Shown piece by piece: positions 18,721-64,000 of a stretch of DNA of 64,000 nt (position 1 is the first letter of the stretch; each line of letters opens with the position of its first letter). The notes beneath the pieces were generated by a model that was given only the letters and a program-made list of their open reading frames with translations, had not been told where the DNA came from and did not search any database. The stretch covers positions 104,992 to 168,991 of the forward strand of contig OZ242020.1 of assembly GCA_965204875.1 (NCBI GenBank), written 5' to 3'. This stretch comes from Candidatus Aldehydirespirator sp. Lineage in GTDB: Bacteria; Actinomycetota; Acidimicrobiia; Acidimicrobiales; Aldehydirespiratoraceae. The position numbers and the translations under genes were made by a program.

Positions 18721-18814
18721 GCGCCCCCAATGCTAGAGCAACAACCACTCGCCAAGCGCGCTCGGGTCGGGGTGACAGGTTGCCTGCCAGGGTGACGGGT
18801 TGCCGGCACGCGCC

Positions 18815-18844
18815 GGGAGGCCCGGCCGTGCTGCCGGGCCTCCC
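18815..18844 (-). terminator. Perfect 12-bp stem hairpin downstream of SLH paralog 1
   Basis: GGGAGGCCCGGC, a 6-nt loop, then GCCGGGCCTCCC, about 30 nt after the stop. The same module follows all three SLH genes. Confidence 0.6.
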
Positions 18845-18873
18845 GGTCGGTATGCCGTCTTGTGCTGGTGGTG

Positions 18874-21513: not shown

Positions 21514-21700
21514 CAGCCTCTCCTCTCGAACACCGGCGGAACCCCGCCGACCCGAATCGACCGGCACGACCCTAACACCACCCGGCCGGCCACAAGCCAA
21601 CCCCGGCAGCACCAGCGCCGTGCCACCCACCAACATACCCCCCCCCCCCCCCCGCAACGCAACGCAACCACAACTCCTCAAGACCTTGAAGGGCCGGCAA
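21514..21700 (-). promoter_or_regulatory. Conserved leader/promoter module of SLH paralog 1, containing a poly-G tract
   Basis: About 170 nt are conserved upstream of all three SLH genes. The module includes a run of about 16 C on the plus strand (21638..21653) abutting aacata (TATGTT on the coding strand), and a GGCGG-GGTT-CCGCC hairpin just before the RBS. Confidence 0.5.
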
Positions 21701-21780
21701 GCGGAGCGGTGACCTCATCCAAGCGCCTAGCCGGAAGGGAGGGGAAGCAAGTCGGGCGAGCCTAGGCTGCCGGCACGCGC

Positions 21781-21810
21781 GGGAGGCCCGGCTGTGTTGC
21801 CGGGCCTCCC
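21781..21810 (-). terminator. Hairpin downstream of SLH paralog 2
   Basis: It has the same GGGAGGCCCGGC / GCCGGGCCTCCC stem as the hairpin at 18815. Confidence 0.6.
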
Positions 21811-21837
21811 GGTCGGTATGCCGTCTCGTGCTGGTGG

Positions 21838-24381
21838 TTAGCCGGAGGGTTCGCTGAGCCTCACGATGCCGCTCGTGACCGGAGTGTTGTTGAGGCTGTT
21901 GGCGGCGTTGGGAGCGTTGGTGCTTGAGCGGATCAGGAACACGACACTGCCTGTGTCACCGGCGGCGGTGTTGGGGTCGTCCATCCAAACCGAGAAGGTG
22001 AGACTGCCGTCAGCGCCAGTGTAACGGGTTCGCCGCCACTGATGCCAATCAGTGGACTGCTGGATAGACTCGGGTCTAACCTCCAAATTGCTTCCTCCAC
22101 TCCTTTTGATCCGATTCACGTGACCGGCCGACGGAAAGTAGCCGCGGTGAATATTGAACGCAGCGCGGCTCGTGCCATCCGCTCCAACGGTGGTGTCTGC
22201 ACCGTCAGCGTCCTTGAGTTGAACCGTGACAGTCACCTCATCACCATAATCGGCCTCCACGAACACCTTGCTGCTGTTACCGGACGTGAACGACTTGTCC
22301 GTCTTCGCACCCTTGGACGTCACAGTGATGCTCGCGGCCGCCTCGCCCGCGGGAACTGTCGTGGTCACCGCAGAGCCAGAAGTCGTACGAGCCCCCTCCG
22401 TCACAAGCACAACAACCACATGCAACCGCTTGTTCGGCAGACCCGTGAACGCGGGAGAAGCCGGACCGTTGACCTCCTCGACAATATGGAGCACCAGCGT
22501 AGCCCTGTCACCCGCAGCGCTTGGGTTCGGATCCGCCGGCGCTGTAACAGCGAACGAAGCCATCCCCGTGCCATCGGTCTTCAGAGTATGCTGAGCAACG
22601 TTATTCGGAGTTTCAGCGCAGGGGTCGCCGCCCCGAAAACCATCCACATAAGCATGGTCATTAGCGACAACTTTAGAAACAGCCTCAGAAATGCTGGTAC
22701 TACACGGAGAAAGGCCAACTCCACGACCCGTCCCGTTGACCTGCCGAACATCGACCAGCACCGGGTTCGTGCCGTCCACACCGAACGCGGCGCGCTTCAC
22801 CCTGTCACCATCGTTCTCATCGGTGTACAACAACTGCACCGTGAACTGCGACCAATCACCGAACTTCATCGCATAATAGGAAACCTTATTTTGATCAATG
22901 AGCCTGGAACCCGCAACAGTCTCATCATCAGGCGTGATGCTCAACGACTCCGCCGCCACCTGACCCAACGGCATAGTCGTAGTAGTCGTCGTCGTCGTCG
23001 TGGTGGTAGTGGTCGTAGTCGTCGTCGTCGTAGTCGTCGTCGTCGTAGTCGTCGTAGCAGTGGGCGTAGTCGTAGTCGTGGTGGTGGTGGTTGCCGGGGC
23101 GGAACCACCGCCGCCGCCTGCAGGAGCGGCGGGAACAACCGCGGTCGCGGCCGGCACCGTGACAGCCCCAGCCTCCCCAGCGATGCGCAACTCGAAACCG
23201 TCCACACTGCTGTCGTTGTAAGAATCGCCGCGGTCGCCGGACCACACCCACACCGTCACACCACGACCAATCGTCGCAGCGGTCAACTCGTCCAGCCTCA
23301 CATCACCGCCGGCACCGGTCACAGGATCACGCGCGTCGATCGCGCACACCGTCGAAGTGCGGTTCACGCTTCTGACGATCGCGTTGCACCCGCCCCGCAG
23401 ATCAAACGCCCGATAGCGGCGCTGCGAACTCACATAGAACCCATCAACCAACGCACCGGCCACCGGCGCGAACACCGCGTCACGCACCGACACAACCACC
23501 GTGTTGCCGTCAGACTGCGCCGTCACCCCCGCCGGGCGCACCTTCGTGTGCGCCAGCGTGCGCGTGATGAACGACGCCATATTCTTGCGCAGAACGGGAT
23601 CACCAGGCGAGAACAGGCTCGCGCCCGCCGCGCTGCCCCTGGTGATACCAAGCTCATACGCGTAGGAGACCGCCGTGTCCACACCCTCAGGCAGACCGCG
23701 ACGCGCGTCAGCGAAATGATCCAGCGTCGCACCCGAACCCAGGATCAGCTCACCGGCCATAGCGCCGCTCCGATGGAACAGTCCGGGGCTGGCATGGCGC
23801 AGGAACCCGACCAGTGCCACCGCCATCTCGGCCCGCGTGATGCTCGCATCGGGCCTGAACGCCATCCCCGACCCGGCCAAGATGTCATTGCGGGCCAACG
23901 CCATGATCGCGTTGCGGCGCTCCTCGTCCAAATCCGCGATGTCAGCGAAGTCGGCGGCACCCGAGCCGCCTGTCAAATCCAACCCCGCCATCCCAGCAGC
24001 CCTGTGCAAGAACAGCGCCATCTGCGAACGCGTCACCTCAGACCCGGCATCGAACCGCTCAACCGTCCTGCCCCTGGTGATCCCATAGTACGCCAGGCAG
24101 TTGATCGCAGCCTCAGCAACCAACCCCTCAGTGTCCACGAACCCCGCGTCACGCGTGGCATCACCCACACACGCCGAAAACACCGGCAACGCATCGGCCT
24201 CCGCGCCGCTGCTGCCCACAGGCGCAGCCCCAACCGGCGCAGCCACCACAACAGAACCCACCAAACCAACCACCAACAACGCAGACCACCATAAGCGAGG
24301 CTTACCCCCGCCACGGCGGCGGCCAGCTACAACATCAACCAGCCCCCCCCCCGCGGGTGAAGTACGAACCATCAGAGACAT
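21838..24381 (-). CDS. SLH-domain surface protein with poly-Thr linker, paralog 2
   Basis: The architecture and N-terminal half match paralog 1 (MSLMVRTSPAGGG...). The central region of about 200 aa has diverged. The C-terminus is conserved (...YTGADGSLTFS.WMDD...VVFLIRSSTNAP...SEPSG). Confidence 0.8.
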   Translation of the reverse strand: MSLMVRTSPAGGGLVDVVAGRRRGGGKPRLWWSALLVVGLVGSVVVAAPVGAAPVGSSGAEADALPVFSACVGDATRDAGFVDTEGLVAEAAINCLAYYGITRGRTVERFDAGSEVTRSQMALFLHRAAGMAGLDLTGGSGAADFADIADLDEERRNAIMALARNDILAGSGMAFRPDASITRAEMAVALVGFLRHASPGLFHRSGAMAGELILGSGATLDHFADARRGLPEGVDTAVSYAYELGITRGSAAGASLFSPGDPVLRKNMASFITRTLAHTKVRPAGVTAQSDGNTVVVSVRDAVFAPVAGALVDGFYVSSQRRYRAFDLRGGCNAIVRSVNRTSTVCAIDARDPVTGAGGDVRLDELTAATIGRGVTVWVWSGDRGDSYNDSSVDGFELRIAGEAGAVTVPAATAVVPAAPAGGGGGSAPATTTTTTTTTPTATTTTTTTTTTTTTTTTTTTTTTTTTTTMPLGQVAAESLSITPDDETVAGSRLIDQNKVSYYAMKFGDWSQFTVQLLYTDENDGDRVKRAAFGVDGTNPVLVDVRQVNGTGRGVGLSPCSTSISEAVSKVVANDHAYVDGFRGGDPCAETPNNVAQHTLKTDGTGMASFAVTAPADPNPSAAGDRATLVLHIVEEVNGPASPAFTGLPNKRLHVVVVLVTEGARTTSGSAVTTTVPAGEAAASITVTSKGAKTDKSFTSGNSSKVFVEADYGDEVTVTVQLKDADGADTTVGADGTSRAAFNIHRGYFPSAGHVNRIKRSGGSNLEVRPESIQQSTDWHQWRRTRYTGADGSLTFSVWMDDPNTAAGDTGSVVFLIRSSTNAPNAANSLNNTPVTSGIVRLSEPSG

Positions 24382-24560
24382 CTCAGCCTCCCCTTCTCTC
24401 GAACACCGGCAGAACCCCGCCGACCCGAATCGACCGGCACAACCCTAACACCACCCGGCCGGCCACAAGCCAACCCGGCAGCACCAGCGCTACACCAACC
24501 ACCAACATACCCCCCCCCGGGCAACGCAACCCACAACTCCACTGGGTTGGCGAAGCTCGC
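24382..24560 (-). promoter_or_regulatory. Conserved leader/promoter module of SLH paralog 2
   Basis: It is homologous to 21514..21700. Here the poly-C run is only about 9 nt (24510..24518). Confidence 0.5.
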
Positions 24561-54131: not shown

Positions 54132-55655
54132 CTACCGCCGTCGAGTTCTTTCGGCAATGAGGTGCTCGATGGCCTCGTCTCGGGCCCAGGCAAGATCTAC
54201 GAGATCGTCAATCGAGGCAACCAATAGCTCGCCTCGACCCTCGATTTCTGTGCGAAGAACATCGAGCGGAACCCGCCTATCGCTCTTTGTGCCATTATGA
54301 TACGGGCAGAGCGGTGCACGATTGTCTATTTCGTGTCGTCCCTGCTTCGACCTGGGATCGATATGATCTAGCACGAAATTATTGATAGTGTGTTGGATCA
54401 ACATCTCGCCGTTCACGTCCTGTTTCCAGTTGGCAAATCCACAGCACCAGGCACGCCAATCCGAAAGACCCAACAGAAACTCAAGCATCTCCGAGCGTGA
54501 GAATATGCTAGCACGGGTCTTGTACTTGCGAGGTGGCAATGGCTTTACCGACTTCACATCGTCTTCCAATGTCGAGCGAACAGGTAGTTCGTGCGGTCCA
54601 CGCATAGTGACATCCGCGCGCGCCAGTGAGGCCCCCGCGTGAGCCAACACGCCCTCAGGTGCTTCACCATCAACGGCGTAACCGAACTTCTTGAACTGCC
54701 GCCTAAGCACAGTCATCGCACGCGGAGATATGTCACAAGCCACCCACTGACGGCCTAACCTTTCCGCAGCTACCGGAACATAGGCACATCCAGCGAAAGG
54801 GTCCATCACCAGATCGCCGGGCATGCTAGATGCTCGGACGATAAGTTCGGCCAAGGCTACCGGCTTCTGGGTCGGATATCCAGTGCGCTCTTTCGCCTGA
54901 TTGTTGAGTGATGGTATGTTCCACACATCGGTCATGCCCTTCTGTTTTCCACTAAGCCTACGTGACGAGGCCGGTTGCGTCGGCTTGGAGAAGGGGAAGA
55001 CATCGGACTTTGTGTAAAATAGTAAGGTATCATGCTTGCGTGACCATCGCTTCGGAGATGATCCACCCAATCCGTATGACCAAACGATCTCGTTCTGAAA
55101 ATTCTCCTCGCCAAATGTCGCATCTAGCAACATTCTCAGATAACTGTTGGCGGCATGATCACAATGCAAGTAGATTGACCCTGAAGGCTTCAGAATACGA
55201 TGGCATTCGATGAGTCGTACAGCCATGTATGCTAGATAAGCAGCGGCACTCTCAGAATGTGTCTTTCGAGTAGCTTGTATCGCACTGTTCACTGCTGAAT
55301 GCCGATCTTCAATATCGTTCATCCATTCCTCGTGGATGTCAGCTGACCACGACCATATATCCTGAAACCTCGCTGTCGTGTCACCCGACGGCCACACGAT
55401 GCTCGCCTTATCCGCATCATTCACACCGTGAATGCCCCATGATGCAAGAACATCTGACTCCATCTGAGTCTCCTCGGCAGTCAGTGGAGGCCTGAGCTTG
55501 CCGACGAACGTGTCGTTCTTCGCGAATGGAGGATCGGTGCAGATGAGGTCGACGCAAGCCGTATCCAGCGACTTGAGCAAATGGCAGTTGTCAACAATGA
55601 ACAGATGCCGGTTGAGAGAGTGTGCCTGTGTCGTGCTGCTCACGTCGCTGGCCAT
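54132..55655 (-). CDS. Beta-class N4/N6 DNA methyltransferase fused to a C-terminal HNH nuclease domain
   Basis: Motif IV TDPPF comes before motif I DPFAGCAY...AAERLGR, which is the beta-class order. The C-terminal DHIDPRSKQGRHEIDNRAPLCPYHNGTKSD forms the HNH domain. GC is about 50% by eye. Confidence 0.75.
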   Translation of the reverse strand: MASDVSSTTQAHSLNRHLFIVDNCHLLKSLDTACVDLICTDPPFAKNDTFVGKLRPPLTAEETQMESDVLASWGIHGVNDADKASIVWPSGDTTARFQDIWSWSADIHEEWMNDIEDRHSAVNSAIQATRKTHSESAAAYLAYMAVRLIECHRILKPSGSIYLHCDHAANSYLRMLLDATFGEENFQNEIVWSYGLGGSSPKRWSRKHDTLLFYTKSDVFPFSKPTQPASSRRLSGKQKGMTDVWNIPSLNNQAKERTGYPTQKPVALAELIVRASSMPGDLVMDPFAGCAYVPVAAERLGRQWVACDISPRAMTVLRRQFKKFGYAVDGEAPEGVLAHAGASLARADVTMRGPHELPVRSTLEDDVKSVKPLPPRKYKTRASIFSRSEMLEFLLGLSDWRAWCCGFANWKQDVNGEMLIQHTINNFVLDHIDPRSKQGRHEIDNRAPLCPYHNGTKSDRRVPLDVLRTEIEGRGELLVASIDDLVDLAWARDEAIEHLIAERTRRR

Positions 55656-55751
55656 CTTCTCAGTACCTTCCTTTCGGAGGGATCGCGTAGGCTACAAGCG
55701 AGCACAGGCGCCGCAGCGCGCACCACAAGTTGAGGGGCGCTTGTCCAGTGG

Positions 55752-55826
55752 TGGGCCGTAGGGGATTTGAACCTCTGACCTCCTGCGTGTCGAGCAGGCG
55801 CTCTAACCAGGCTGAGCTAACGGCCC
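55752..55826 (-). tRNA. tRNA-Val (anticodon GAC) with non-canonical features
   Basis: The reverse complement GGGCCGTTAGCTCAGCCTGGTTAGAGCG-CCTGC-TCGACAC-GCAGG-AGGTC-AGAGGTTCAAATCCCCT-ACGGCCCA folds as a cloverleaf. Position 33 reads C and the T-stem has one A.C mismatch. Confidence 0.7.
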
Positions 55827-56015
55827 CGAGGCTTCGCAGGCTAGCAGGCGCGGCCGGCACGCGTGCCGATCAAGGACGTAGATGAGCGCTCATTCCAGAT
55901 CGAGGAGCAGCCAACCGCCGCTCCGCCGAGGCCCGGCACGGAGCCGACCTCCCCATAGCGCCGACAACGGGACATCTAGACAGCCCCGAGTAGCACATGC
56001 GCCCTGTTAGCATGG

Positions 56016-57398
56016 GTGCCGGTGGGCGAGATGGTGGCGAGTGAGGCGTGGCTGCCCTCAGCGGGCGGGCTGCAACGGCGGCGCTATCACGGCTACCTGC
56101 CCGACCCGCTGAGCGACTGGGCCCCCGAGCCGGACGCCGCGTTGCAGGCTGCGATCGATGCCGCCGATCAGCACTGCGCCCGGATCGGCCGCATGGGAGG
56201 CGCACCGCTGGGGGTTGCCGTGGCGTCCTGGGTGGTCGCACGCGACGAGAGCATCCAGTCGAGCATCATCGAAGGCATCCGCACATCGAGGGATGCCCTC
56301 GCCTGGGCGCAGTACCGAGAGCGCACCGGTCAGCCGATATTCGACGCGAACAGCGCGCTGACGCTGGGCGCGGGGCGGCAACTCGAGGCCGCCCGCGAGT
56401 TGGGCGAGCGCATGAGAGAGGGCGAGGCCTGCCGCGTGGAGGACTTGCGTGCGCTGCACGCGGCCCTCTGCGAGAACACCCCTGATCGCCACATTGCCGG
56501 AGTCGTGCGGCATGAGCCCATCTGGATAGGCCCTCCCAACTGCCGGATCGAAGATGCTGCCTTCGTGGCGCCGCCGCCCTCGTATGTGCCCGATCTGCTG
56601 GAGGACTTGACGCATTACATCAACTCGGCACGTCACTCTCCGGCGTTTCAAGCCGCCGCCGCTCACGCACAGTTCGAGGCGATCCACCCGTTCGAGGACG
56701 GCAACGGCAGAACCGGCAGGGCACTCATCCACGCGGTGCTCATAGCCCGAGGAGTGGTGAACGGCGCAGTGCCCATCAGTTCCACGCTCGAACGCGAGCG
56801 CCGTGAATATTATGCGGCGCTCAACGAGTCGCATGTGCTGTGCGCGCCCGGCGACTCGCGGGCACGCCTGTCCGGATTGAGCAGATGGCTGCTGCTGTTC
56901 CGGGACGCCGCCGCCGAAGCCGAGGAGCACGTTCGGCATGCTCTCGAATCTGCCGAGGCGTTAATCTCCCAATGGCGCAATAGGGCGCGTCTGAGAGCGG
57001 GGAGCGGCGCGACCGCGCTCCTAGAGGCGCTGCCGTCAATGCCGATCTTGACGGCTGACATGGCTGCCCGAAGATTGGGCATGAGTCCCAAGTCCGCACG
57101 CACCGCGATACGCACGCTGACACGGGCAGGCATTCTCAAGCCGATCGGCGGCAAGCGCAACGGGCGCTACACGGTGCCCGACGTCATCGAGTTGATCCCG
57201 ACCACTACGCCGGAAGGGGGCGCGGTGGCGGCCAACTACAGCACCGCGGCAGCCGCAGCGTCATCGCTGTTGGACGCCTTGCCACCCAACGCCGCCGCCA
57301 GGCAGCATATCGTGTGCGCGTACCTGGGCCCGCGCTCCAAGAAGCCCTGCCTGCTGCCCAAAGGCCACGGCGGTCAGCACCGCTACACAACCCGGTGA
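56016..57398 (+). CDS. Fic family protein
   Basis: Fic motif HPFEDGNGRTGRAL and a C-terminal wHTH-like region. The start is uncertain. Confidence 0.85.
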   Translation: MPVGEMVASEAWLPSAGGLQRRRYHGYLPDPLSDWAPEPDAALQAAIDAADQHCARIGRMGGAPLGVAVASWVVARDESIQSSIIEGIRTSRDALAWAQYRERTGQPIFDANSALTLGAGRQLEAARELGERMREGEACRVEDLRALHAALCENTPDRHIAGVVRHEPIWIGPPNCRIEDAAFVAPPPSYVPDLLEDLTHYINSARHSPAFQAAAAHAQFEAIHPFEDGNGRTGRALIHAVLIARGVVNGAVPISSTLERERREYYAALNESHVLCAPGDSRARLSGLSRWLLLFRDAAAEAEEHVRHALESAEALISQWRNRARLRAGSGATALLEALPSMPILTADMAARRLGMSPKSARTAIRTLTRAGILKPIGGKRNGRYTVPDVIELIPTTTPEGGAVAANYSTAAAAASSLLDALPPNAAARQHIVCAYLGPRSKKPCLLPKGHGGQHRYTTR

Positions 57399-57733
57399 GA
57401 TCGGATTGGGCCTGCCCGGCCGGCACGGCCGGATCGCTCCACTCATTGAAGGCCCCAAGCCAGGCTGCTGCCCGGAAGCCGTTGTCCCACTGTTCGCGCT
57501 CCGTCATCCGCAGGGGCACCACACAGGCTGATTGAAGACCGCGGCCTGCCCTCAACCGTCACGCTGAGGCAGAGCAAGCGCAACGCCGCATCACCCTTCC
57601 CTCCAGTAAGTGCCCAGTAGCGCTGCTGTGCGCCTGTGGATTGGCCCACCAATGCCGGATGCGCTCGTAGGCGCCCAGCGGCGCGGGGCGCGCCCCCCAC
57701 GACCTCCCGGAGGTCGGGGCGGCTGCGCGATCG

Positions 57734-57808
57734 AGCGCCGGGCGGGATTTGAACCCGCGGCTTCACGGCTTTGCAGGCCGTTCCCTTCGGCCACTCGGGC
57801 ACCGGCGC
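57734..57808 (-). tRNA. tRNA-Cys (anticodon GCA)
   Basis: The reverse complement GCGCCGGTGCCCGAGTGGCCGAAGGGA-ACGGC-CTGCAAA-GCCGT...GCGGGTTCAAATCCCGC-CCGGCGCT closely resembles actinobacterial tRNA-Cys. Confidence 0.85.
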
Positions 57809-57944
57809 GGGGTTCCAAGCGTACCGGCGACACCGGCGCCTGCCGCGGCCTCCGGCGGTCGCAGCGGACTCCTTCAGTTCGCAGCAATGACGGTGTACGT
57901 TGTTGGGTTATCGCCGCGGCCTCCGGCGGTCGCAGCGGACTCCG

Positions 57945-58577
57945 TCAGCGCCGGCGGGAGCGGGCGGCCACCGCTGCGGTCACCGACGCCGCCCCCGCCG
58001 AGTGCAGGCACCTCGCGACCGCACGCAACGTTGCGCCGGTGAGCATCACGTCGTCCACAAGCACTATGTGGCGGTCCGCAACCGGCTCCAGCGCCATGTA
58101 ACCCAACCCTGCGGCAACCTCGTCGTGCGCCTCGGGCTCGACGTCTTGCATCTTGGGCGAATCGCGCCGGCGGCCGAGGAGGCCGGGGCGCCACTCCCCC
58201 GCCCCGGCTGCCGCCAACGCTCGCGCCAGATGCGAAGCCACGGTCGCAGCGCGCCCCCTCGTTGCCGCGTGATCGACCTGGGTGAGTGGCGCATAGGCGT
58301 CATCGGATGCCCGACCGGGCCGCGACACCAGGGTCGGATCGCCCTGCCCCGTGGCCGATGGCGGCCCCGAGGGCACGCCCGTGACCAGGTTCGGCGGGCC
58401 GCCCGATGGCACGGGGATCCGGGCCGCCAGGCCCGCGAAGCGAACGGCGAGCCGGGCCGCCGCCGCCGGGTCGTCCAAGTCCCGGGCCCTGTGCACCAGC
58501 AGGCCGACCTCGGTGCGGACATTGCCGGCGGGTCTCCAGTAGTCGTCGAGCACATGCAGGCTCTCGACGCCTCGCAT
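57945..58577 (-). CDS. ComF-family phosphoribosyltransferase-like protein
   Basis: C-terminal PRTase motif HIVLVDDVMLTGATL. The listed start at 58622 overlaps tRNA-Gly, so an internal start (ATG at 58577 or later) is more likely. Confidence 0.6.
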   Translation of the reverse strand: MRGVESLHVLDDYWRPAGNVRTEVGLLVHRARDLDDPAAAARLAVRFAGLAARIPVPSGGPPNLVTGVPSGPPSATGQGDPTLVSRPGRASDDAYAPLTQVDHAATRGRAATVASHLARALAAAGAGEWRPGLLGRRRDSPKMQDVEPEAHDEVAAGLGYMALEPVADRHIVLVDDVMLTGATLRAVARCLHSAGAASVTAAVAARSRRR

Positions 58578-58580
58578 CGG

Positions 58581-58653
58581 AGCGGACGACCGGCCTCGAA
58601 CCGGCGACCTCAACCTTGGCAAGGTTGCGCTCTACCAACTGAGCTACGTCCGC
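58581..58653 (-). tRNA. tRNA-Gly (anticodon GCC)
   Basis: The reverse complement GCGGACGTAGCTCAGTTGGTAGAGCG-CAACC-TTGCCAA-GGTTG-AGGTC-GCCGGTTCGAGGCCGGT-CGTCCGCT. Confidence 0.9.
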
Positions 58654-58759
58654 GAAGAAGCGACGATGCTAGCGCCGCACTCCAGCACCGACACCGGCAC
58701 CCAGACATCAGACACCGCTGAGCCGGTCGTTGCCGAAGGGAGAGGAAACAGTTTCGGCT

Positions 58760-59770
58760 CTAGTGGCGGTCGCCGGGCGCGGCGGGCGACCCGGGCGCAT
58801 CGCGCACGCTGACCGCCGCGGCGCGCAAGGACCCGGCCACTGCATCGGCATCAGCGAGCTCCGCCTCCTGATCGGCACTGATCGGCAGCAGCCTCTCCAG
58901 CGGGGAGCGCGCCTCCGCGGACGCGTGCGCCAGCAGTTCGGCGGCGGCTGCTAGGTGGTCTGCGGCATTCTGATCGTTGGTCTGTTCCGTCATCTCCTGA
59001 GTGGAAGACGCATATCCGGCAAAGCGCCAGTTTGTGAACGCCCCCTTGGAATCGCGCGGCAGGGCACCGAGGGCAGCAGACACCGCCGCGTGAACATCCT
59101 GCTCGTCAACGAGCGCATCAAGCATCTTCTCTATCTTGTGATCGCGGTCGAGGACGCGCCCCTTGCGCAGGCGTCCTATCGCGTTCAGCGATGACTCGAG
59201 GCAAAAGTGGGAGTCTTCCAACATGTTCAGCAGCGCCCACGACCCGGGACGATCTTCGCTAGTCGAACTATGGCTGAAGGCAGCGTCACAGGCCGAAGAT
59301 CCTTTGCGCGCGCCCTGCATAATTTCGTTGATGGCGAGCTGCCTATCGTTGCGTGCCATAGTCCACGCCGCTCCTTCCCGCTCCGCGATATCGCCGTCAA
59401 TCTCTGAATGTCCGCTCAGGGTGCGCCCGTGGCGGACGGCCTCGCTGTAAACGGACGAGCGTGCATATCGGGTGCTCCAGGCAAGCTGCCGCGGCGTCAC
59501 CGGCATAGCGTCACAGTCGAAACCGGTGACGCCATGCGCCCGGTCTTGCAACTCGCCCTGCAGCGCCTCGAACTCCGACTCCGAGCAGTCCGGCGTGTCC
59601 ACGACCACCAGCAGGTCGATGTCGGAGCGCTCCGTCGCCGCGTTCTTGGCGACCGAACCGAACAGCACAACCGCCTCGATCTCAGGATGCGCATCCCGAA
59701 GAGCCTCCGCGGCGCGCTGAGCATCAGCAGCAGTAGGAATGGAGGCAGCCGAGTTGCCGGGAGTGCCCAT
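58760..59770 (-). CDS. Fused nucleotidyltransferase (MNT-type) and HEPN-like protein, paralog A
   Basis: N-terminal LFGSVAKNAATERSDIDLLVVV (the GS...DxD NTase motif). The C-terminal half carries GRLRKGRVLDRDHK, which fits the HEPN Rx4-6H motif. Confidence 0.6.
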   Translation of the reverse strand: MGTPGNSAASIPTAADAQRAAEALRDAHPEIEAVVLFGSVAKNAATERSDIDLLVVVDTPDCSESEFEALQGELQDRAHGVTGFDCDAMPVTPRQLAWSTRYARSSVYSEAVRHGRTLSGHSEIDGDIAEREGAAWTMARNDRQLAINEIMQGARKGSSACDAAFSHSSTSEDRPGSWALLNMLEDSHFCLESSLNAIGRLRKGRVLDRDHKIEKMLDALVDEQDVHAAVSAALGALPRDSKGAFTNWRFAGYASSTQEMTEQTNDQNAADHLAAAAELLAHASAEARSPLERLLPISADQEAELADADAVAGSLRAAAVSVRDAPGSPAAPGDRH

Positions 59771-59889
59771 AACGCGAGACGCCTCCTGCGGAGCGGGGTC
59801 ATCGGCAGCCTAATCGAAACGCCCCTTGACGCCCCTGTGGGCCGTGGGTAGGGAAACGGGTCGGGCGTGCCGGGGCTTCCGGGACGCGC

Positions 59890-59919
59890 GGGAGGCCCGG
59901 CGGCGTTGCCGGGCCTCCC
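59890..59919 (-). terminator. Hairpin downstream of SLH paralog 3
   Basis: It has the same GGGAGGCCCGGC / GCCGGGCCTCCC stem as the hairpins at 18815 and 21781. Confidence 0.6.
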
Positions 59920-59952
59920 GGTCGGTGTGCCGTCTCGGGTGTTTGATGGCGT

Positions 59953-62355
59953 TTAGCCGGTGGGTTCGCTGAGTCTCACGATGCCGCTTGTGACCGGGGT
60001 GGTGCCGAGGTCGTTGGTGGCGTCGGGGGCGTTGGTGCTCGAGCGGATCAGGAACACAACGCTGCCCGAGTGGCCCGAGGTGCCGGTGTCGGGGTCGTCC
60101 ATCCAGGTTGAGAAGGTGAGGCTGCCGTCAGCGCCGGTGTAACGGGTCCGCCGGTACTGGTCCCAACCGCTGGACGCCTCGGCAGACCGCGGCATAATCA
60201 CAATATCGCGCGCTCCCGCCCTTTCAATCGAGTTCGCGTGACCGCCTGTCGGGAAGTAGAGACGTTGGATATTGAACGCAGCGCGGCTCGTGCCATCCAC
60301 ACCGACGGTGGTGTCACCGTCAGCGTCCTGGAGTTGCACCGTGATCGACACCTCATCACCATAATCGGCCGCCACGAACGTCGAGCTTGTGGTCCCGGAC
60401 GTGAACGACTTGTCAGTCTTGGCACCGTTGGACATCACGGTAATCTTGGTAGCCGCGTCGCCGGCGGGCACGGTCGTGGTCACCGCGGACCCAGAAGTCG
60501 TGCGCGCACCCTCCGACACATGCACAATGACCACATGCATCCGCTTGTTCGGAACAGCAGTGATCGCAGACGATGCCGGACCGTTGATCTCCTCCACAAG
60601 ATGAACTACCAGCGTGCGCCTGTCACCCGCAGTGCCCGGGGTCGGATCCGCCGGCGCCATAACAGCGAACGAAGCCATACCCGTGCTATCGGTCTTCAGA
60701 GTATGCTGAGCAACGGTAGCATCGTTTCGAGTGGAATTGAGATAGTCGTTAGCAACAACCTTCGGCGTAGCACTACTGAACTGAGAAGGGTTCTTTAGGT
60801 GAGTATCGATGTCGACCTGCCGAACATCAATCAACACAGGGTTCGTGCCGTCCACACCGAACGCGGCGCGCTTCACCTTGTCACCATCATTCTCGTCGGT
60901 GTACAACAACTGCACCGTGAACTGCGACCAGTCACCGAACTTCATCTGGTAATAGTCACCGCCACCACTAAAGGTGGCCTTGGTAGCCGCAACCTTCTCA
61001 TCATCAGGCGTGATACTCAACGACTCGGCCGCCACCTGACCCAACGGCATAGTAGTCGTAGTCGTCGTAGTGGTCGTAGTAGGCGTAGTCGTCGTCGTCG
61101 TCGTGGTCGTCGTGGCGGAACCGCCGCCGCCGCCTGCTGGGGCGGCGGGAACGACCGCGGTCGCGGCCGGCACCGTGACAGCGTCAGGATCACCGGCGAT
61201 GCGCAACTCGAACCCGTCCACACTGCTGTCGTTGTAAGAATCGCCCCGGTCGCCGGACCAGACCCACACCGTCACACCACGACCGATGGTCGCGGCGGCC
61301 AGCTCGTCCAGCTTCACATCACCATCGGCGCCGGTGACCGGATCACGCGCGTCGACCGCGCACGCCGTCGAGGTGCGATTCACGCTCCGCACGAGCGCGT
61401 TGCACCCGCCCCGCAGATCAAACGCCCGATAGCGGCGCTGCGTGCTCACATAGAACCCGTCAACCGGCGCACCAGCCACCGGCATGAACATTGCGTCGCG
61501 CACCGACACCACCACCGTGTTGCCATCGGCCTGCGCGGTCACGCCAGCGGGGCGCACACCCGTGTGCGCCAACCAGCGCGACACGAACGATGCCAGGTTC
61601 TTGCGCAGCACACGACCCTCAGGATCAAACTTGCTCCCATCGCTGGCGCTGCCCGTCGTCAACCCCAACTCGAACCCATAACTCGCCGCCGTGCCCACAC
61701 GTCCCGAACGCGCGTCGCTGAAATGATCCAGGCTGCCCTCGCCGAGCTTCAACGCGCCCGACGCGTCGAACAGGCCCGGGCTCGCCAACCGCAACAACCC
61801 CACAAGCGCCGCCACCGTCTCAGCACGCGTCACCGGCACACCGGACATGGCACCGTCACCCGAGAGCACACCGGCGGCGGCCAACGCCGCCACAGCACGC
61901 CGGGTCTCATTGTCCATCGCGGCGTCGCCATCCATCCCGGCGTCATCTTCGGCGTCACCGAACTCAACCCCCGCGAGCACCGCCGCCCGATACAACACCA
62001 ACGCCAACTCCGCACGCGACACCACCGCACCGGCACCGAACCGGTCCTCAGACGCGCTCACGGCGACCCCGTAATACGCCAGACAGTTCACCGCGTCCTC
62101 AGCGCCGATACCCGCAACATCCACAAACCCCGCATCCCCCAACGCGTCACCAAAACACGCAGAAAACACCGGCAACACATCAGCCTCCGCGCCGCTGCCG
62201 CCCACAGGCGCGGCCCCAGCAGGAGCCGCTGCCACAACCCCACCAACCAAACCAACCACCAACAACACACACCACAACAAACCACCACCACCACCACGGC
62301 GGCGGCCGGCTACAACATCAGCCAGCCCCCCCCCCGCGGCGAGAACCACTACCAA
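59953..62355 (-). CDS. SLH-domain surface protein with a shorter poly-Thr linker, paralog 3; the conserved start is apparently out of frame
   Basis: The architecture matches paralogs 1 and 2. The ORF track starts this ORF at a TTG (MVVVLAAGGG...). The conserved RBS and ATG-TCT-CTG-ATG lie a few nt upstream in a different frame. Confidence 0.7.
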   Translation of the reverse strand: MVVVLAAGGGLADVVAGRRRGGGGGLLWCVLLVVGLVGGVVAAAPAGAAPVGGSGAEADVLPVFSACFGDALGDAGFVDVAGIGAEDAVNCLAYYGVAVSASEDRFGAGAVVSRAELALVLYRAAVLAGVEFGDAEDDAGMDGDAAMDNETRRAVAALAAAGVLSGDGAMSGVPVTRAETVAALVGLLRLASPGLFDASGALKLGEGSLDHFSDARSGRVGTAASYGFELGLTTGSASDGSKFDPEGRVLRKNLASFVSRWLAHTGVRPAGVTAQADGNTVVVSVRDAMFMPVAGAPVDGFYVSTQRRYRAFDLRGGCNALVRSVNRTSTACAVDARDPVTGADGDVKLDELAAATIGRGVTVWVWSGDRGDSYNDSSVDGFELRIAGDPDAVTVPAATAVVPAAPAGGGGGSATTTTTTTTTTPTTTTTTTTTTMPLGQVAAESLSITPDDEKVAATKATFSGGGDYYQMKFGDWSQFTVQLLYTDENDGDKVKRAAFGVDGTNPVLIDVRQVDIDTHLKNPSQFSSATPKVVANDYLNSTRNDATVAQHTLKTDSTGMASFAVMAPADPTPGTAGDRRTLVVHLVEEINGPASSAITAVPNKRMHVVIVHVSEGARTTSGSAVTTTVPAGDAATKITVMSNGAKTDKSFTSGTTSSTFVAADYGDEVSITVQLQDADGDTTVGVDGTSRAAFNIQRLYFPTGGHANSIERAGARDIVIMPRSAEASSGWDQYRRTRYTGADGSLTFSTWMDDPDTGTSGHSGSVVFLIRSSTNAPDATNDLGTTPVTSGIVRLSEPTG

Positions 62356-62540
62356 CCATCAGAGACATCTGAGCCTCCCCTTTCTCTCGAACGCCGGCAG
62401 AACCCCGCCGACCCGGCTAGACGGCACAACCCTAACACCACCGGCCGGCAACACGCCAACCCCGGCAGCACCAGAGCCACACCACCCACCAACATACCCA
62501 AGCCGCCCCCCGGCACGCAACAACCACAAACCCTCAAGGC
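62356..62540 (-). promoter_or_regulatory. Conserved leader/promoter module of SLH paralog 3
   Basis: It is homologous to the other two leaders. Here the poly-C run next to aacata is interrupted (ccc aag ccg cccccc). Confidence 0.45.
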
Positions 62541-62790
62541 CGAGAACGGCCGGCTAGCAGCGCATGGACATCATCCAAGCGCCTGCACGAACTGCGACGC
62601 CCCAGCCGGCTCGCCCCCCTGCTGCCGACGACGGCCCCCCGACGGCACGTCCGTGACCAGATCCGGCAGGCCGACCGACGAACCGGGGACCTGAGCTGCA
62701 AGGCACCGGTCGCTTGACACGACGCATCGCACAAGCACGTTGCCGCACTGGCGCGGACGCGGCACGCCGCCGGCAGGAACAGCTTCGGCT

Positions 62791-63801
62791 CTAGTGGCGG
62801 TCGCCGGGCGCTGCGGGCGAACCGGGCGCATCGCGCACGCTGACCGCCGCAGCGCGCAAGGACTCGGCCACTGCATCGGCATCAGCGAGCTCCTCCTCCT
62901 GATCGGCGCTGATCGGCGGCAGCCTCTCCAGCGAGCCGCGCGCCTCTGCTGCCGCGTATCTCAAGAGTGCCGCCGCAGCTTCCAGATGAGCCGCAGCGTT
63001 CTCCTCGGTTGTCTCAGCCATCAGCTTCGGGGTTGCCCCAGCGTAGAGCGCGAGCCGCCACCTCGTGAACTCGCCCTTGTCGTCGCGCGGCAGGTCGCTG
63101 AGCGCCACGGAGGCTGCCGCATACGCATCGACTTCTTCGGCTAGCTCCTCCAGCATGATCTCAATCCGATGATCGCGGTCAAGGATGCGCCCCATACGCA
63201 GGCGTCCTACCGCGTTCAGGCAGGCTTCGGCACAAGCATGGGAGCTTTCCAACGCGTCCTGCAGTGTCCGCAGTCGCTTGCCGGCACCGCTAGAAATCAG
63301 CAACTCTCGCGCTGCTCGGTCCGCCGACTCCGCCTTCCTTGCAGCCTGCATAATTTCGTTGATGGCGAGCTGCCTATCGTTGCGTGCCATAGCCCATGCT
63401 GCCCCTTCCCGCTCAGCGATATCGCTGTCAATCTCTGAATGTCCGCTCAGGGTGCGCCCGTGGCGGACGGCCTCGCTGTAAACCGACGAGCGCGCATATC
63501 GGGTACTCCAGGCAAGCTGCCGCGGCGTCACCGGCATAGCGTCACAGTCGAAACCGGTGACGCTATGCACCCGGTCTTGCAACTCGCCCTGCAGCGCCTC
63601 GAACTCCGACTCCGAGCAGTCCGGCGTGTCCACGACCACCAGCAGGTCGATGTCGGAGCGCTCCGTCGCCGCGTTCTTGGCGACCGAGCCGAACAGCACA
63701 ACCGCCTCGATCTCAGGATGCGCATCCCGAAGAGCCTCCGCAGCACGTTGAGCATCAGCAGCAGTAGGAATGGAGGCAGTGGAGTTGCTAGGAGTGCTCA
63801 T
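62791..63801 (-). CDS. Fused nucleotidyltransferase (MNT-type) and HEPN-like protein, paralog B
   Basis: It has the same length (336 aa) as paralog A. The first ~135 and last ~45 residues are nearly identical to paralog A, the middle has diverged, and RMGRILDRDHR is conserved. Confidence 0.6.
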   Translation of the reverse strand: MSTPSNSTASIPTAADAQRAAEALRDAHPEIEAVVLFGSVAKNAATERSDIDLLVVVDTPDCSESEFEALQGELQDRVHSVTGFDCDAMPVTPRQLAWSTRYARSSVYSEAVRHGRTLSGHSEIDSDIAEREGAAWAMARNDRQLAINEIMQAARKAESADRAARELLISSGAGKRLRTLQDALESSHACAEACLNAVGRLRMGRILDRDHRIEIMLEELAEEVDAYAAASVALSDLPRDDKGEFTRWRLALYAGATPKLMAETTEENAAAHLEAAAALLRYAAAEARGSLERLPPISADQEEELADADAVAESLRAAAVSVRDAPGSPAAPGDRH

Positions 63802-64000
63802 AACGCGGGACGCCTCCTACGGAACGGGGTCATCGGCAGTCTAATCGAGACATCCCCGTGCGCACGCGCCGCCCCAGCGGTACGACCTCGCCGCCAACCA
63901 CGAAACTGAGCGTCCCAGCGCGCACGCGCCGCTCCAGAACCCAGAGCCACAACGCCACCGCCGGACACAGCTGCTCAGAGCCCTGCCCACGATCGGGACT

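What the first reader, a model, noticed from the sequence alone, without database searches (positions are those of the whole stretch)
58760..63801. Two mosaic MNT-HEPN-like fusion paralogs bracket the third SLH surface-protein gene
The genes at 58760..59770 and 62791..63801 both encode 336-aa proteins. Each has an N-terminal minimal nucleotidyltransferase motif (GS...DIDLLVV) and a C-terminal R-x5-H HEPN-like motif (R(V/I)LDRDH). Their first ~135 and last ~45 residues are almost identical, including at the DNA level. The middle ~150 residues have diverged strongly. This is the same pattern of conserved ends and a variable core seen in the SLH genes. MNT and HEPN are normally a two-gene toxin-antitoxin pair. 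A fused, duplicated and diversifying version flanking a putatively phase-variable surface gene suggests a linked module for defence, addiction or regulation.
Basis: partly seen in the sequence, partly recalled or inferred. Interest (0 to 1): 0.55.

Follow-up and report, generated by a model that had tools for sequence, protein, structure and literature searches.

The report
Duplicated fused MNT-HEPN toxin-antitoxin-like genes
Two neighbouring genes encode copies of a single-chain nucleotidyltransferase-plus-HEPN protein, an already catalogued toxin-antitoxin-like design, and their position either side of a surface-protein gene looks like a one-off local rearrangement with no functional link.

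Summary
Two 336-aa ORFs (58760-59770 and 62791-63801, both on the - strand) are 77% identical. Their ends are about 96% identical at the DNA level and the core about 60%.

The N-terminus is a minimal nucleotidyltransferase (MNT), matched above Pfam's cut-off. The C-terminus is a classical HEPN domain (PF05168, "HEPN-T"). That assignment rests on remote homology: Pfam does not hit the window proteins directly, but relatives pass its cut-off, and a C-terminal profile hits the solved HEPN proteins 1ufb and 1wol. The E…R-x5-H site is retained.

- **No SLH link.** None of 31 related loci carries an SLH gene, and the window's other two SLH paralogs have no MNT neighbour.
- **No diversifying selection.** dN/dS is 0.17-0.27 in every segment. 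dS is about 0.12 at the ends and about 1.45 in the core, and a third paralog gives conflicting trees, so gene conversion homogenised the ends of an old duplicate.

Relatives form a rare, chromosomal family, found mainly in Acidimicrobiia and largely in sponge symbionts. They often occur as abutting tandem arrays in R-M, Fic or defence neighbourhoods. MNT fusions to HEPN-T were catalogued in 2013, and a different fused MNT-HEPN toxin-antitoxin was characterised in 2026. This is a new member of a known kind, of modest interest.

The parts
58760..59770 (-). mnt1: 336-aa single-chain MNT-HEPN protein
   Evidence: ORF. Pfam MNT hits. AlphaFold model with mean pLDDT 83.9. Identical to database protein P0001.
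59411..59731 (-). mnt1 MNT (minimal nucleotidyltransferase) domain, aa 14-120, with the GS...DxD motif at aa 38-52 (59615-59659)
   Evidence: Pfam Polbeta PF18765 at 39.5 bits (cut-off 26.9) and NTP_transf_2 PF01909 at 38.5 bits (cut-off 21). The model shows an alpha/beta fold over aa 14-120. GS is present in 58/58 and DxD in 57/58 family members that have a residue at those columns.
59354..59410 (-). mnt1 flexible linker, about aa 121-139
   Evidence: pLDDT is below 50 for residues 125-139 in the full-length model.
58799..59353 (-). mnt1 all-helical HEPN-like domain, aa 140-324
   Evidence: C-terminal model has pLDDT 89.8 and pTM 0.87. BLASTP to P0045's HEPN region gives E = 7e-12. hhalign to the family C-terminus gives 91% and 99.3%. 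The family profile hits 1ufb and 1wol.
59138..59158 (-). mnt1 R205-x5-H211 motif (RVLDRDH). The partner acidic residue E192 lies 19 residues upstream.
   Evidence: Read directly from the sequence. H211 and E192 are each conserved in 59/61 family members, and 45/59 have an Arg 4-6 residues before the His.
58901..59320 (-). Diverged core of mnt1 (gene nt 451-870, aa 151-290)
   Evidence: About 60% nt identity to mnt2. dS = 1.45, dN = 0.39, dN/dS = 0.27.
59771..59817 (-). Conserved 5' leader of mnt1, with a TAGGCT -10-like box and a GGAGG ribosome-binding site
   Evidence: The alignment with the mnt2 leader is nearly identical over about 50 nt and then breaks down. The promoter role is inferred.
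62791..63801 (-). mnt2: paralogous 336-aa MNT-HEPN protein. The public annotation (P0002) starts it at codon 35.
63169..63189 (-). mnt2 R205-x5-H211 motif (RILDRDH)
   Evidence: Read directly from the sequence.
62932..63351 (-). Diverged core of mnt2. It is closer to the third paralog P0003 than to mnt1.
63802..63848 (-). Conserved 5' leader of mnt2
59851..62584 (-). SLH cassette (gene 59953-62355), homologous to the slh1/slh2 locus beyond both gene ends. It fills the gap between the two MNT repeats. It is a neighbour and not part of the MNT-HEPN module.
   Evidence: blastn to 18797-24512 at 72-86% identity. tblastn. Pfam SLH.
59889..59920 (-). Perfect 13-bp GC hairpin just downstream of the slh3 stop. 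It is terminator-like and separates slh3 from mnt1.
   Evidence: RNA fold of -37.6 kcal/mol, z = -3.16.
58579..58653 (-). tRNA-Gly(GCC) immediately downstream of mnt1, part of a Val-Cys-Gly tRNA cluster interspersed with conflict-type genes (context only)
   Evidence: ARAGORN. Neighbouring genes.

Best explanation
The two genes are paralogs of a single-chain MNT-HEPN protein. Each has an N-terminal minimal nucleotidyltransferase joined by a flexible linker of about 20 residues to a C-terminal classical HEPN domain (HEPN-T, Pfam PF05168). The HEPN domain keeps the putative RNase residues E192, R205 and H211.

They belong to a rare, chromosomal family found mainly in Acidimicrobiia, many of them sponge symbionts. 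Family members occur singly or as directly abutting tandem arrays, usually among restriction-modification, Fic, PIN or SIR2-HerA genes.

The most likely mechanism is inferred by analogy with type VII HepT/MntA and the fused FhepTA. The NTase domain would nucleotidylylate the HEPN domain, and/or sterically block its dimerisation, keeping an RNase silent. Stress or phage infection would release it and arrest growth.

The mosaic is historical, not adaptive. The duplication is old (core dS about 1.45). Gene conversion between two direct repeats 4 kb apart has recently homogenised the MNT domain plus leader and the 3' tail (dS about 0.12). Every segment is under purifying selection.

The SLH gene between the copies is an unrelated paralogous cassette sitting where relatives have abutting tandem copies. 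This last point is inferred.
For: **Architecture**
- MNT domain: Pfam and NCBIfam hits.
- HEPN domain.
- Confident two-domain model.
- Catalytic-type residues are conserved: H211 59/61, E192 59/61, Rx4-6H 45/59, GS/DxD in nearly all.

**Family and context**
- Only 92 hits among 1.84 billion representative proteins.
- 20 of the 23 reference-genome loci are from Acidimicrobiia MAGs.
- Tandem arrays of 2-4 copies.
- 6 of 8 sampled neighbourhoods hold R-M, defence or toxin genes.
- In the window, a methylase-HNH fusion and a Fic gene lie next door, with homologs near family members elsewhere.

**Gene conversion**
- Segment-wise dS and dN.
- Tree incongruence with the third paralog P0003.
- The same conserved-MNT, variable early-HEPN mosaic appears in the 4-copy array of L024.

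**Independence from the SLH gene**.

**Literature**
- HEPN-T 'fusions to MNT' and clustering with R-M operons (PMC3710099).
- Fused MNT-HEPN acting as a self-regulating toxin-antitoxin (PMC13000451).
Against: - Pfam's HEPN model does not hit the window proteins directly.
- A profile of the closest branch alone finds no solved HEPN structure.
- Foldseek on the C-terminal model gives no significant match. HepT and other HEPN chains appear only among weak hits, at E >= 0.6.
- The Arg is not at a fixed position across the family.
- There is no Tyr next to the His, unlike the AMPylated Tyr of HepT and FhepTA.
- The MntA equivalog model scores 37 bits against a cut-off of 60.
- Anantharaman et al. 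state that HEPN domains fused to MNT are typically inactive substrate-binding domains.
- Two of the eight contexts are plain housekeeping.
- There are no relatives on phages, plasmids or viral contigs.
- No toxicity, RNase or AMPylation data exist for any HEPN-T fusion that I could find.
Confidence: 0.55

Rival explanations
1. Domesticated enzyme. The protein is a nucleotidyltransferase that modifies a small molecule or another protein. [quoted passage not shown] It would not be a toxin-antitoxin module.
For: - Anantharaman et al. 2013 state that MNT-fused HEPN domains are typically inactive and exapted for substrate binding.
- The best full-length Foldseek hits are two-domain enzymes: AadA, 3c18, LinB, ANT(4') and HalB.
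- There is no Tyr acceptor beside the His.
- The Arg position is variable across the family.
- Some members sit in housekeeping neighbourhoods.
Against: - Those Foldseek hits are weak: E >= 2.6e-3 and TM 0.2-0.34.
- NCBIfam ANT models score far below their cut-offs.
- The domain matches PF05168, not the aminoglycoside-NT C-terminal families.
- His and Glu are near-invariant, and 76% of members keep Rx4-6H.
- Tandem arrays and defence-island contexts are unusual for a metabolic or resistance enzyme.
Confidence: 0.25
2. Linked SLH module. The two MNT-HEPN genes would be functionally tied to the surface-protein gene they bracket. They might act as an addiction or regulatory device. Alternatively they might act as 1-kb direct repeats whose recombination deletes or amplifies the SLH cassette, giving a form of phase variation.
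For: - The bracket geometry is exact. The SLH cassette (59851-62584) fills the space between the repeats, which end at 59817 and start at 62775.
- The repeats share 450 nt at about 96% identity in direct orientation, enough for RecA-mediated deletion.
- Ongoing sequence exchange between the copies is demonstrated.
Against: - 0 of 31 family loci in other genomes carry an SLH relative.
- slh1 and slh2 in the same window have no MNT neighbour.
- A hairpin and separate leaders argue for independent transcription.
- In relatives the copies abut directly, 3-12 nt apart.
- Any direct repeat can recombine, so the geometry alone needs no selected function.
Confidence: 0.08
3. Arms-race diversification. 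The variable core would be driven by positive selection, for instance to change trigger or target specificity, and would not simply be old divergence.
For: - The most variable patch, aa about 150-180 (end of the first HEPN helix and the following loop), is also the most variable region among the four tandem copies in L024.
- The family sits in conflict-gene neighbourhoods.
Against: - Core dN/dS is 0.27 with saturated dS (1.45), so there is no excess of replacement changes.
- Only two or three sequences are available, so site-level tests are impossible.
- The variable patch coincides with a lower-confidence loop, which may simply be unconstrained.
Confidence: 0.1

Closest known systems
HEPN-T (Pfam PF05168) fused to MNT, as catalogued by Anantharaman et al. 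2013 (PMC3710099, Table 1)
   Same: - Same two domains in the same order.
- Same HEPN subfamily. Relatives pass Pfam's PF05168 gathering score, and the family profile hits 1ufb, 1wol and TM0613.
- The same tendency to cluster with R-M genes.
   Different: - The window proteins are a divergent, lineage-restricted branch that Pfam's HEPN model does not detect directly.
- They keep E, R-x5 and H, whereas the survey considered fused HEPN domains typically inactive.
- They form tandem arrays.
FhepTA, the fused MntA-HepT toxin-antitoxin of Shewanella (Yao et al. 2026, PMC13000451)
   Same: - A single polypeptide with an N-terminal MNT and a C-terminal HEPN that carries an R...H motif.
- It offers a plausible mechanistic template: self-nucleotidylylation and control of HEPN dimerisation.
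   Different: - FhepTA's HEPN is the DUF86/HepT type, with RφxxxH plus an adjacent AMPylated Tyr. Here the HEPN is PF05168-type, with R-x5-H and no adjacent Tyr.
- FhepTA is 276 aa with a 3-5-residue hydrophobic linker. Here the protein is 336 aa with a disordered linker of about 20 residues and an extra C-terminal helix.
- FhepTA lies on prophages and islands. This family gave no hits on phages, plasmids or viral contigs.
Two-gene type VII HepT/MntA (HEPN/MNT) toxin-antitoxin systems
   Same: - The MNT domain's best NCBIfam match is MntA (37 bits).
- Stand-alone MntA structures (7bxo, 8xeo, 1no5) are the best compact structural matches to the N-domain, with TMt 0.58-0.67.
   Different: - One gene instead of two.
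- The score is below the MntA equivalog cut-off of 60.
- The toxin domain belongs to a different HEPN family.
Aminoglycoside/lincosamide nucleotidyltransferases (AadA, ANT(4'), ANT(9), LinB, KNTase)
   Same: A two-domain layout of an NTase plus a helical, HEPN-superfamily C-terminal domain. These are weak Foldseek hits.
   Different: - NCBIfam scores are 12-19 bits against cut-offs of 193-505.
- Their C-terminal domains lack the Rx4-6H residues.
- The genomic context here is not a resistance context.

Membership tests
MNT / Pol-beta-superfamily minimal nucleotidyltransferase (PF01909, PF18765) | Profile match above the curated cut-off | tested here: met
   PF18765 scores 39.5 and 39.8 bits (cut-off 26.9). 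PF01909 scores 38.5 and 39.7 bits (cut-off 21). Both copies were tested.
MNT / Pol-beta-superfamily minimal nucleotidyltransferase (PF01909, PF18765) | Catalytic G-S...D-x-D motif on an alpha/beta core | tested here: met
   G38-S39 and D50-I-D52 are present. They are conserved in 57-58 of the 58 family members that have a residue at those columns. The model shows an alpha/beta fold over aa 14-120 at pLDDT around 95.
Classical HEPN domain (HEPN-T, PF05168) | Direct profile match above Pfam's gathering score | tested here: not met
   There is no PF05168 hit for either window protein, even at E <= 1. Relatives P0004 (27.0), P0045 (23.0) and P0053 (22.4) pass the cut-off of 22.
Classical HEPN domain (HEPN-T, PF05168) | Demonstrable homology to recognised HEPN domains | tested here: met
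   - mnt1 C-terminus against P0045's HEPN region: E = 7e-12.
- Window trio against the rest of the family, hhalign: 91%, E = 9e-7.
- Closest branch against the PF05168-bearing branch: 99.3%, E = 2e-20.
- Family profile against 1ufb: 6.6e-6, and against 1wol: 5.8e-4.
Classical HEPN domain (HEPN-T, PF05168) | Rx4-6H motif plus a conserved acidic residue in a preceding helix | tested here: met
   R205-x5-H211 and E192 are present in both copies and in P0003. Across the family, H is in 59/61, E in 59/61 and Rx4-6H in 45/59.
Classical HEPN domain (HEPN-T, PF05168) | Four-helix up-down HEPN fold | tested here: inconclusive
[quoted passage not shown] | MntA equivalog score of at least 60 bits (NF047752) | tested here: not met
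   36.9 and 37.5 bits.
[quoted passage not shown] | DUF86/HepT-type HEPN with RφxxxH and an adjacent Tyr acceptor | tested here: not met
   There is no PF01934 hit. The motif is R-x5-H followed by K-I-E, with no adjacent Tyr.
[quoted passage not shown] | HEPN toxicity neutralised by MNT-catalysed AMPylation | not testable with these tools
   This requires expression and mass-spectrometry experiments.
FhepTA (fused MntA-HepT) | Single polypeptide, MNT at the N-terminus and HEPN at the C-terminus | tested here: met
   The same single-ORF architecture is seen in more than 60 relatives.
FhepTA (fused MntA-HepT) | High similarity to a two-gene HepT/MntA pair, a 3-5-residue hydrophobic linker, and carriage on a mobile element | tested here: not met
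   The HEPN subfamily is different. The linker is about 20 residues and disordered. There are no phage, plasmid or viral-contig relatives.
Aminoglycoside/lincosamide nucleotidyltransferases | NCBIfam family or equivalog score above the cut-off | tested here: not met
   The best score is 19.2 bits, against cut-offs of 193-505.
   0 of 31 loci have an SLH relative. slh1 and slh2 lack MNT neighbours.

The most novel reading that the evidence does not exclude
The mainly acidimicrobial MNT-HEPN-T fusions could be an undescribed single-protein abortive-infection system, analogous to CapRel. In this reading the variable stretch at the start of the HEPN domain (aa about 150-180) is a trigger-sensing surface, and tandem arrays of 2-4 paralogs form a repertoire of sensors. 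Concerted evolution would keep the MNT 'safety catch' uniform while the sensor cores stay distinct. The window's pair would then be one such array, split by an inserted SLH cassette.
Probability: 0.12. Interest if true: 0.6.

Novelty: new member of a known kind. Interest (0 to 1): 0.27.

Why it matters
The result removes a tempting but unsupported story, a defence or addiction module tied to a phase-variable surface protein. It replaces that story with a documented case of gene conversion between nearby paralogs.

It also defines a rare family of MNT-HEPN-T fusions, mainly in Acidimicrobiia and enriched in sponge symbionts. The family keeps its putative RNase residues and forms tandem arrays in defence-type neighbourhoods. 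That runs against the 2013 generalisation that MNT-fused HEPN domains are inactive.

If the proteins are active, the family would extend the recently described fused MNT-HEPN toxin-antitoxin concept (FhepTA) to a second HEPN subfamily. No member of that subfamily has been tested biochemically as far as I could find.

Tried and rejected
**Look-ups and searches that gave nothing**
- Exact-protein look-ups for P0001, P0002, P0003 and P0039 found no record. I therefore could not retrieve the source chromosome, locate the third paralog, or see past window position 64000.
- Cluster look-up gave no names or accessions.
- Foldseek on the C-terminal model gave no significant hit.
- Full-length Foldseek gave only weak hits, depressed by domain orientation.
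- A profile of the closest branch alone (A6) found no solved HEPN structure.
- PADLOC hits covered only the MNT domain and matched unnamed candidate families.
- The sigma-70 and terminator consensus scans were uninformative at about 68% GC.
- Searches of plasmids, phages and viral contigs found no relatives.

**Readings I rejected**
- Antibiotic nucleotidyltransferase: scores are far below the cut-offs.
- Assembly artefact or collapsed strain variants: the copies differ by 17% at the DNA level, a third paralog exists, and more than 60 relatives share the architecture.
- Accidental fusion of two genes by a frameshift: the same single ORF is present across many genomes.
- Positive diversifying selection on the core: dN/dS is 0.27.
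Full report
**1. Observation**

Both ORFs are present exactly as described: 58760-59770 and 62791-63801, both on the - strand and both 336 aa. They align without gaps at 77% identity.

The DNA repeat is a sharp mosaic:
- Gene nt 1-450 differ at 20 positions.
- Gene nt 451-870 are about 60% identical.
- Gene nt 871-1011 differ at 7 positions.
- The repeat extends 17 nt past the stop and 47 nt into a shared 5' leader (58743-59817 against 62775-63848).

The GS...DIDLLVV motif (aa 38-56) and the R(V/I)LDRDH motif (aa 205-211) are as stated. Between the copies lies an 800-aa SLH protein gene, a paralog of two tandem SLH genes at 18.9-24.4 kb.

**2. What the proteins are**

*N-terminus.* Residues 14-120 form a minimal nucleotidyltransferase. 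Pfam PF18765 and PF01909 score above their cut-offs. The best NCBIfam match is the MntA antitoxin, at 37 bits and below its 60-bit equivalog cut-off. Aminoglycoside nucleotidyltransferase models score 12-19 bits against cut-offs of 193-505, so this is not a known resistance enzyme.

*C-terminus.* No family library hits the C-terminal 200 residues directly. The assignment rests on homology:
- The word-indexed search found only the two window proteins, a third paralog in the same genome (P0003, 62% identity) and three distant fusions. One of those, P0004, passes Pfam's HEPN (PF05168) gathering score.
- The exhaustive search found closer relatives: P0039 (39% identity, E = 5.5e-39), P0040, and about 40 further two-domain proteins. 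Of these, P0045 and P0053 pass the HEPN cut-off.
- mnt1's C-terminal domain alone aligns to P0045's HEPN region at E = 7e-12, and to P0039 at E = 2e-22 with the R-x5-H conserved.
- Profile comparisons agree. The window trio against the rest of the family gives 91%. The closest branch against the PF05168-bearing branch gives 99.3%, E = 2e-20.
- A C-terminal family profile hits the solved HEPN proteins TT1696/1ufb (6.6e-6), 1wol (5.8e-4) and, weakly, TM0613.

*Conservation.* Across 61 non-redundant members, the His and the helix Glu are each present in 59. 45 of the 59 members with the His have an Arg 4-6 residues upstream of it. GS/DxD is essentially invariant.

I conclude that this is an MNT-HEPN-T fusion with a retained RNase-type site. 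The Arg position does drift within the family, and there is no Tyr beside the His as there is in HepT.

**3. The mosaic**

Nei-Gojobori estimates are as follows:

| Segment | dS | dN/dS |
|---|---|---|
| 5' end | 0.127 | 0.17 |
| Core | 1.45 | 0.27 |
| 3' end | 0.116 | 0.26 |

Selection is therefore purifying throughout, and the ends are simply far younger than the core.

The third paralog gives conflicting trees. At the ends mnt1 and mnt2 are nearly identical and P0003 is the outlier. In the core mnt2 is closer to P0003 than to mnt1. That is the signature of gene conversion between the two neighbouring direct repeats, not of diversifying selection.

The four tandem copies in another genome (L024) show the same pattern. 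The MNT domain is 80-96% identical, and the linker plus first HEPN helix are 43-75% identical. Concerted evolution of the MNT half looks like a family habit.

**4. The SLH link**

The evidence is against a functional link:
- None of 31 loci encoding family members contains a relative of the SLH proteins.
- slh1 and slh2 in this window have no MNT neighbour.
- The SLH-homologous cassette (59851-62584) extends beyond the gene on both sides and fills the gap between the MNT repeats almost exactly. In relatives, tandem copies abut with spacers of 3-12 nt.
- A perfect 13-bp GC hairpin (-37.6 kcal/mol) follows slh3.
- Each MNT gene has its own conserved leader, with a -10-like box and a GGAGG site.

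The simplest reading is a tandem MNT-HEPN pair split by, or duplicated around, an SLH cassette in this one genome. The direct repeats could in principle mediate loss or gain of the cassette, but nothing here shows that this happens.

**5. Context and likely function**

20 of the 23 reference-genome loci are from Acidimicrobiia MAGs, many from sponge symbionts. There are no hits on plasmids, phages or viral contigs.

Six of the eight neighbourhoods with precomputed annotation contain R-M, defence or toxin genes:
- a type III-like Mod+Res pair with Schlafen/HATPase genes (twice);
- SIR2-HerA;
- a MmeI-type methylase with PIN and Fic;
- three Fic genes with UvrD;
- a PLD-nuclease with a transposase and HNH.

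Two neighbourhoods are housekeeping.

In the window, the pair sits at a Val-Cys-Gly tRNA cluster next to a low-GC methylase-HNH fusion and a Fic gene. Homologs of both recur near family members elsewhere.

This fits the 2013 survey, which lists HEPN-T 'fusions to MNT' and clustering with R-M operons (PMC3710099). The same survey expected fused HEPN domains to be inactive.

A mechanistic template is FhepTA (PMC13000451). In that protein the MNT domain auto-oligoAMPylates the HEPN RNase and blocks its dimerisation. The present family differs from FhepTA in HEPN subfamily, linker and motif, so it may work like FhepTA but is not a member of that group.

I rate the fused toxin-antitoxin or defence reading at about 0.55. 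The domesticated-enzyme reading I rate at about 0.25.

**6. Verdict**

The SLH linkage and the 'diversifying' label are not supported. The architecture is already catalogued, so this is a new, lineage-restricted member of a known kind, of modest interest.

Noticed in passing
window 54132-58653: A Val(GAC)-Cys-Gly tRNA cluster is interspersed with conflict-type genes. These are a low-GC (0.56) N6/N4 DNA methylase fused to an HNH nuclease (54132-55655), a Fic/DOC protein (56016-57398) and a phosphoribosyltransferase-domain ORF (57945-58622). Housekeeping genes (AceK, citrate synthase) end at about 54 kb, so this looks like a variable island.
   Followed up: partly
L005, L021, L026, L030 and window 56016-57398: Fic-domain genes homologous to the window's Fic protein (28-32% identity, E about 1e-15) lie within 10 kb of MNT-HEPN family members in four other loci. 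L030 has three Fic genes. A methylase-HNH homolog (29% identity over 450 aa) lies near the family member in L023.
   Followed up: partly
L024 8001-11787; L029 6968-8912: Relatives form directly abutting tandem arrays, four copies in L024 and two in L029, with spacers of 3-100 nt. In both genomes the array sits beside a ResIII helicase gene and Schlafen-AlbA_2/HATPase_c_4 gene(s). L029 also has an N6_N4 methylase gene there.
   Followed up: partly
window 61041-61121: slh3 contains a run of about 21 Thr codons (TTTTTTTTTTPTTTTTTTTTT), detected as a repeat with 9-nt periodicity. It could be a site of slippage and length variation in the surface protein.
   Followed up: no
window 62356-62584: Homology of slh3 to slh1/slh2 continues upstream of the listed TTG start at 62355. 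The protein alignment reaches 62520 and the DNA alignment reaches 62584. The true start of slh3 is probably further upstream.
   Followed up: no
window 63700-63801: The public annotation of mnt2 (P0002, 302 aa) starts at codon 35 (GTG). The 5' 100 nt, the leader and the GGAGG site are about 96% identical to those of mnt1, which is annotated at full length. The 336-aa form is therefore more likely.
   Followed up: yes
window 57945-58622: The mechanically listed PRTase ORF overlaps tRNA-Gly (58579-58653), so its real start must lie downstream of the listed one. Many long antisense ORFs in this region (for example 60799-62694 on the + strand) are artefacts of the high GC content.
   Followed up: no
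P0044, P0048, P0052 (relatives, C-termini): Some longer family members (410-428 aa) end in a shared Cys/His-rich tail, for example 'C(K/Q)NPHPGAGG(V/T)CS..H', which resembles a small zinc-binding module. The window proteins lack it.
   Followed up: no
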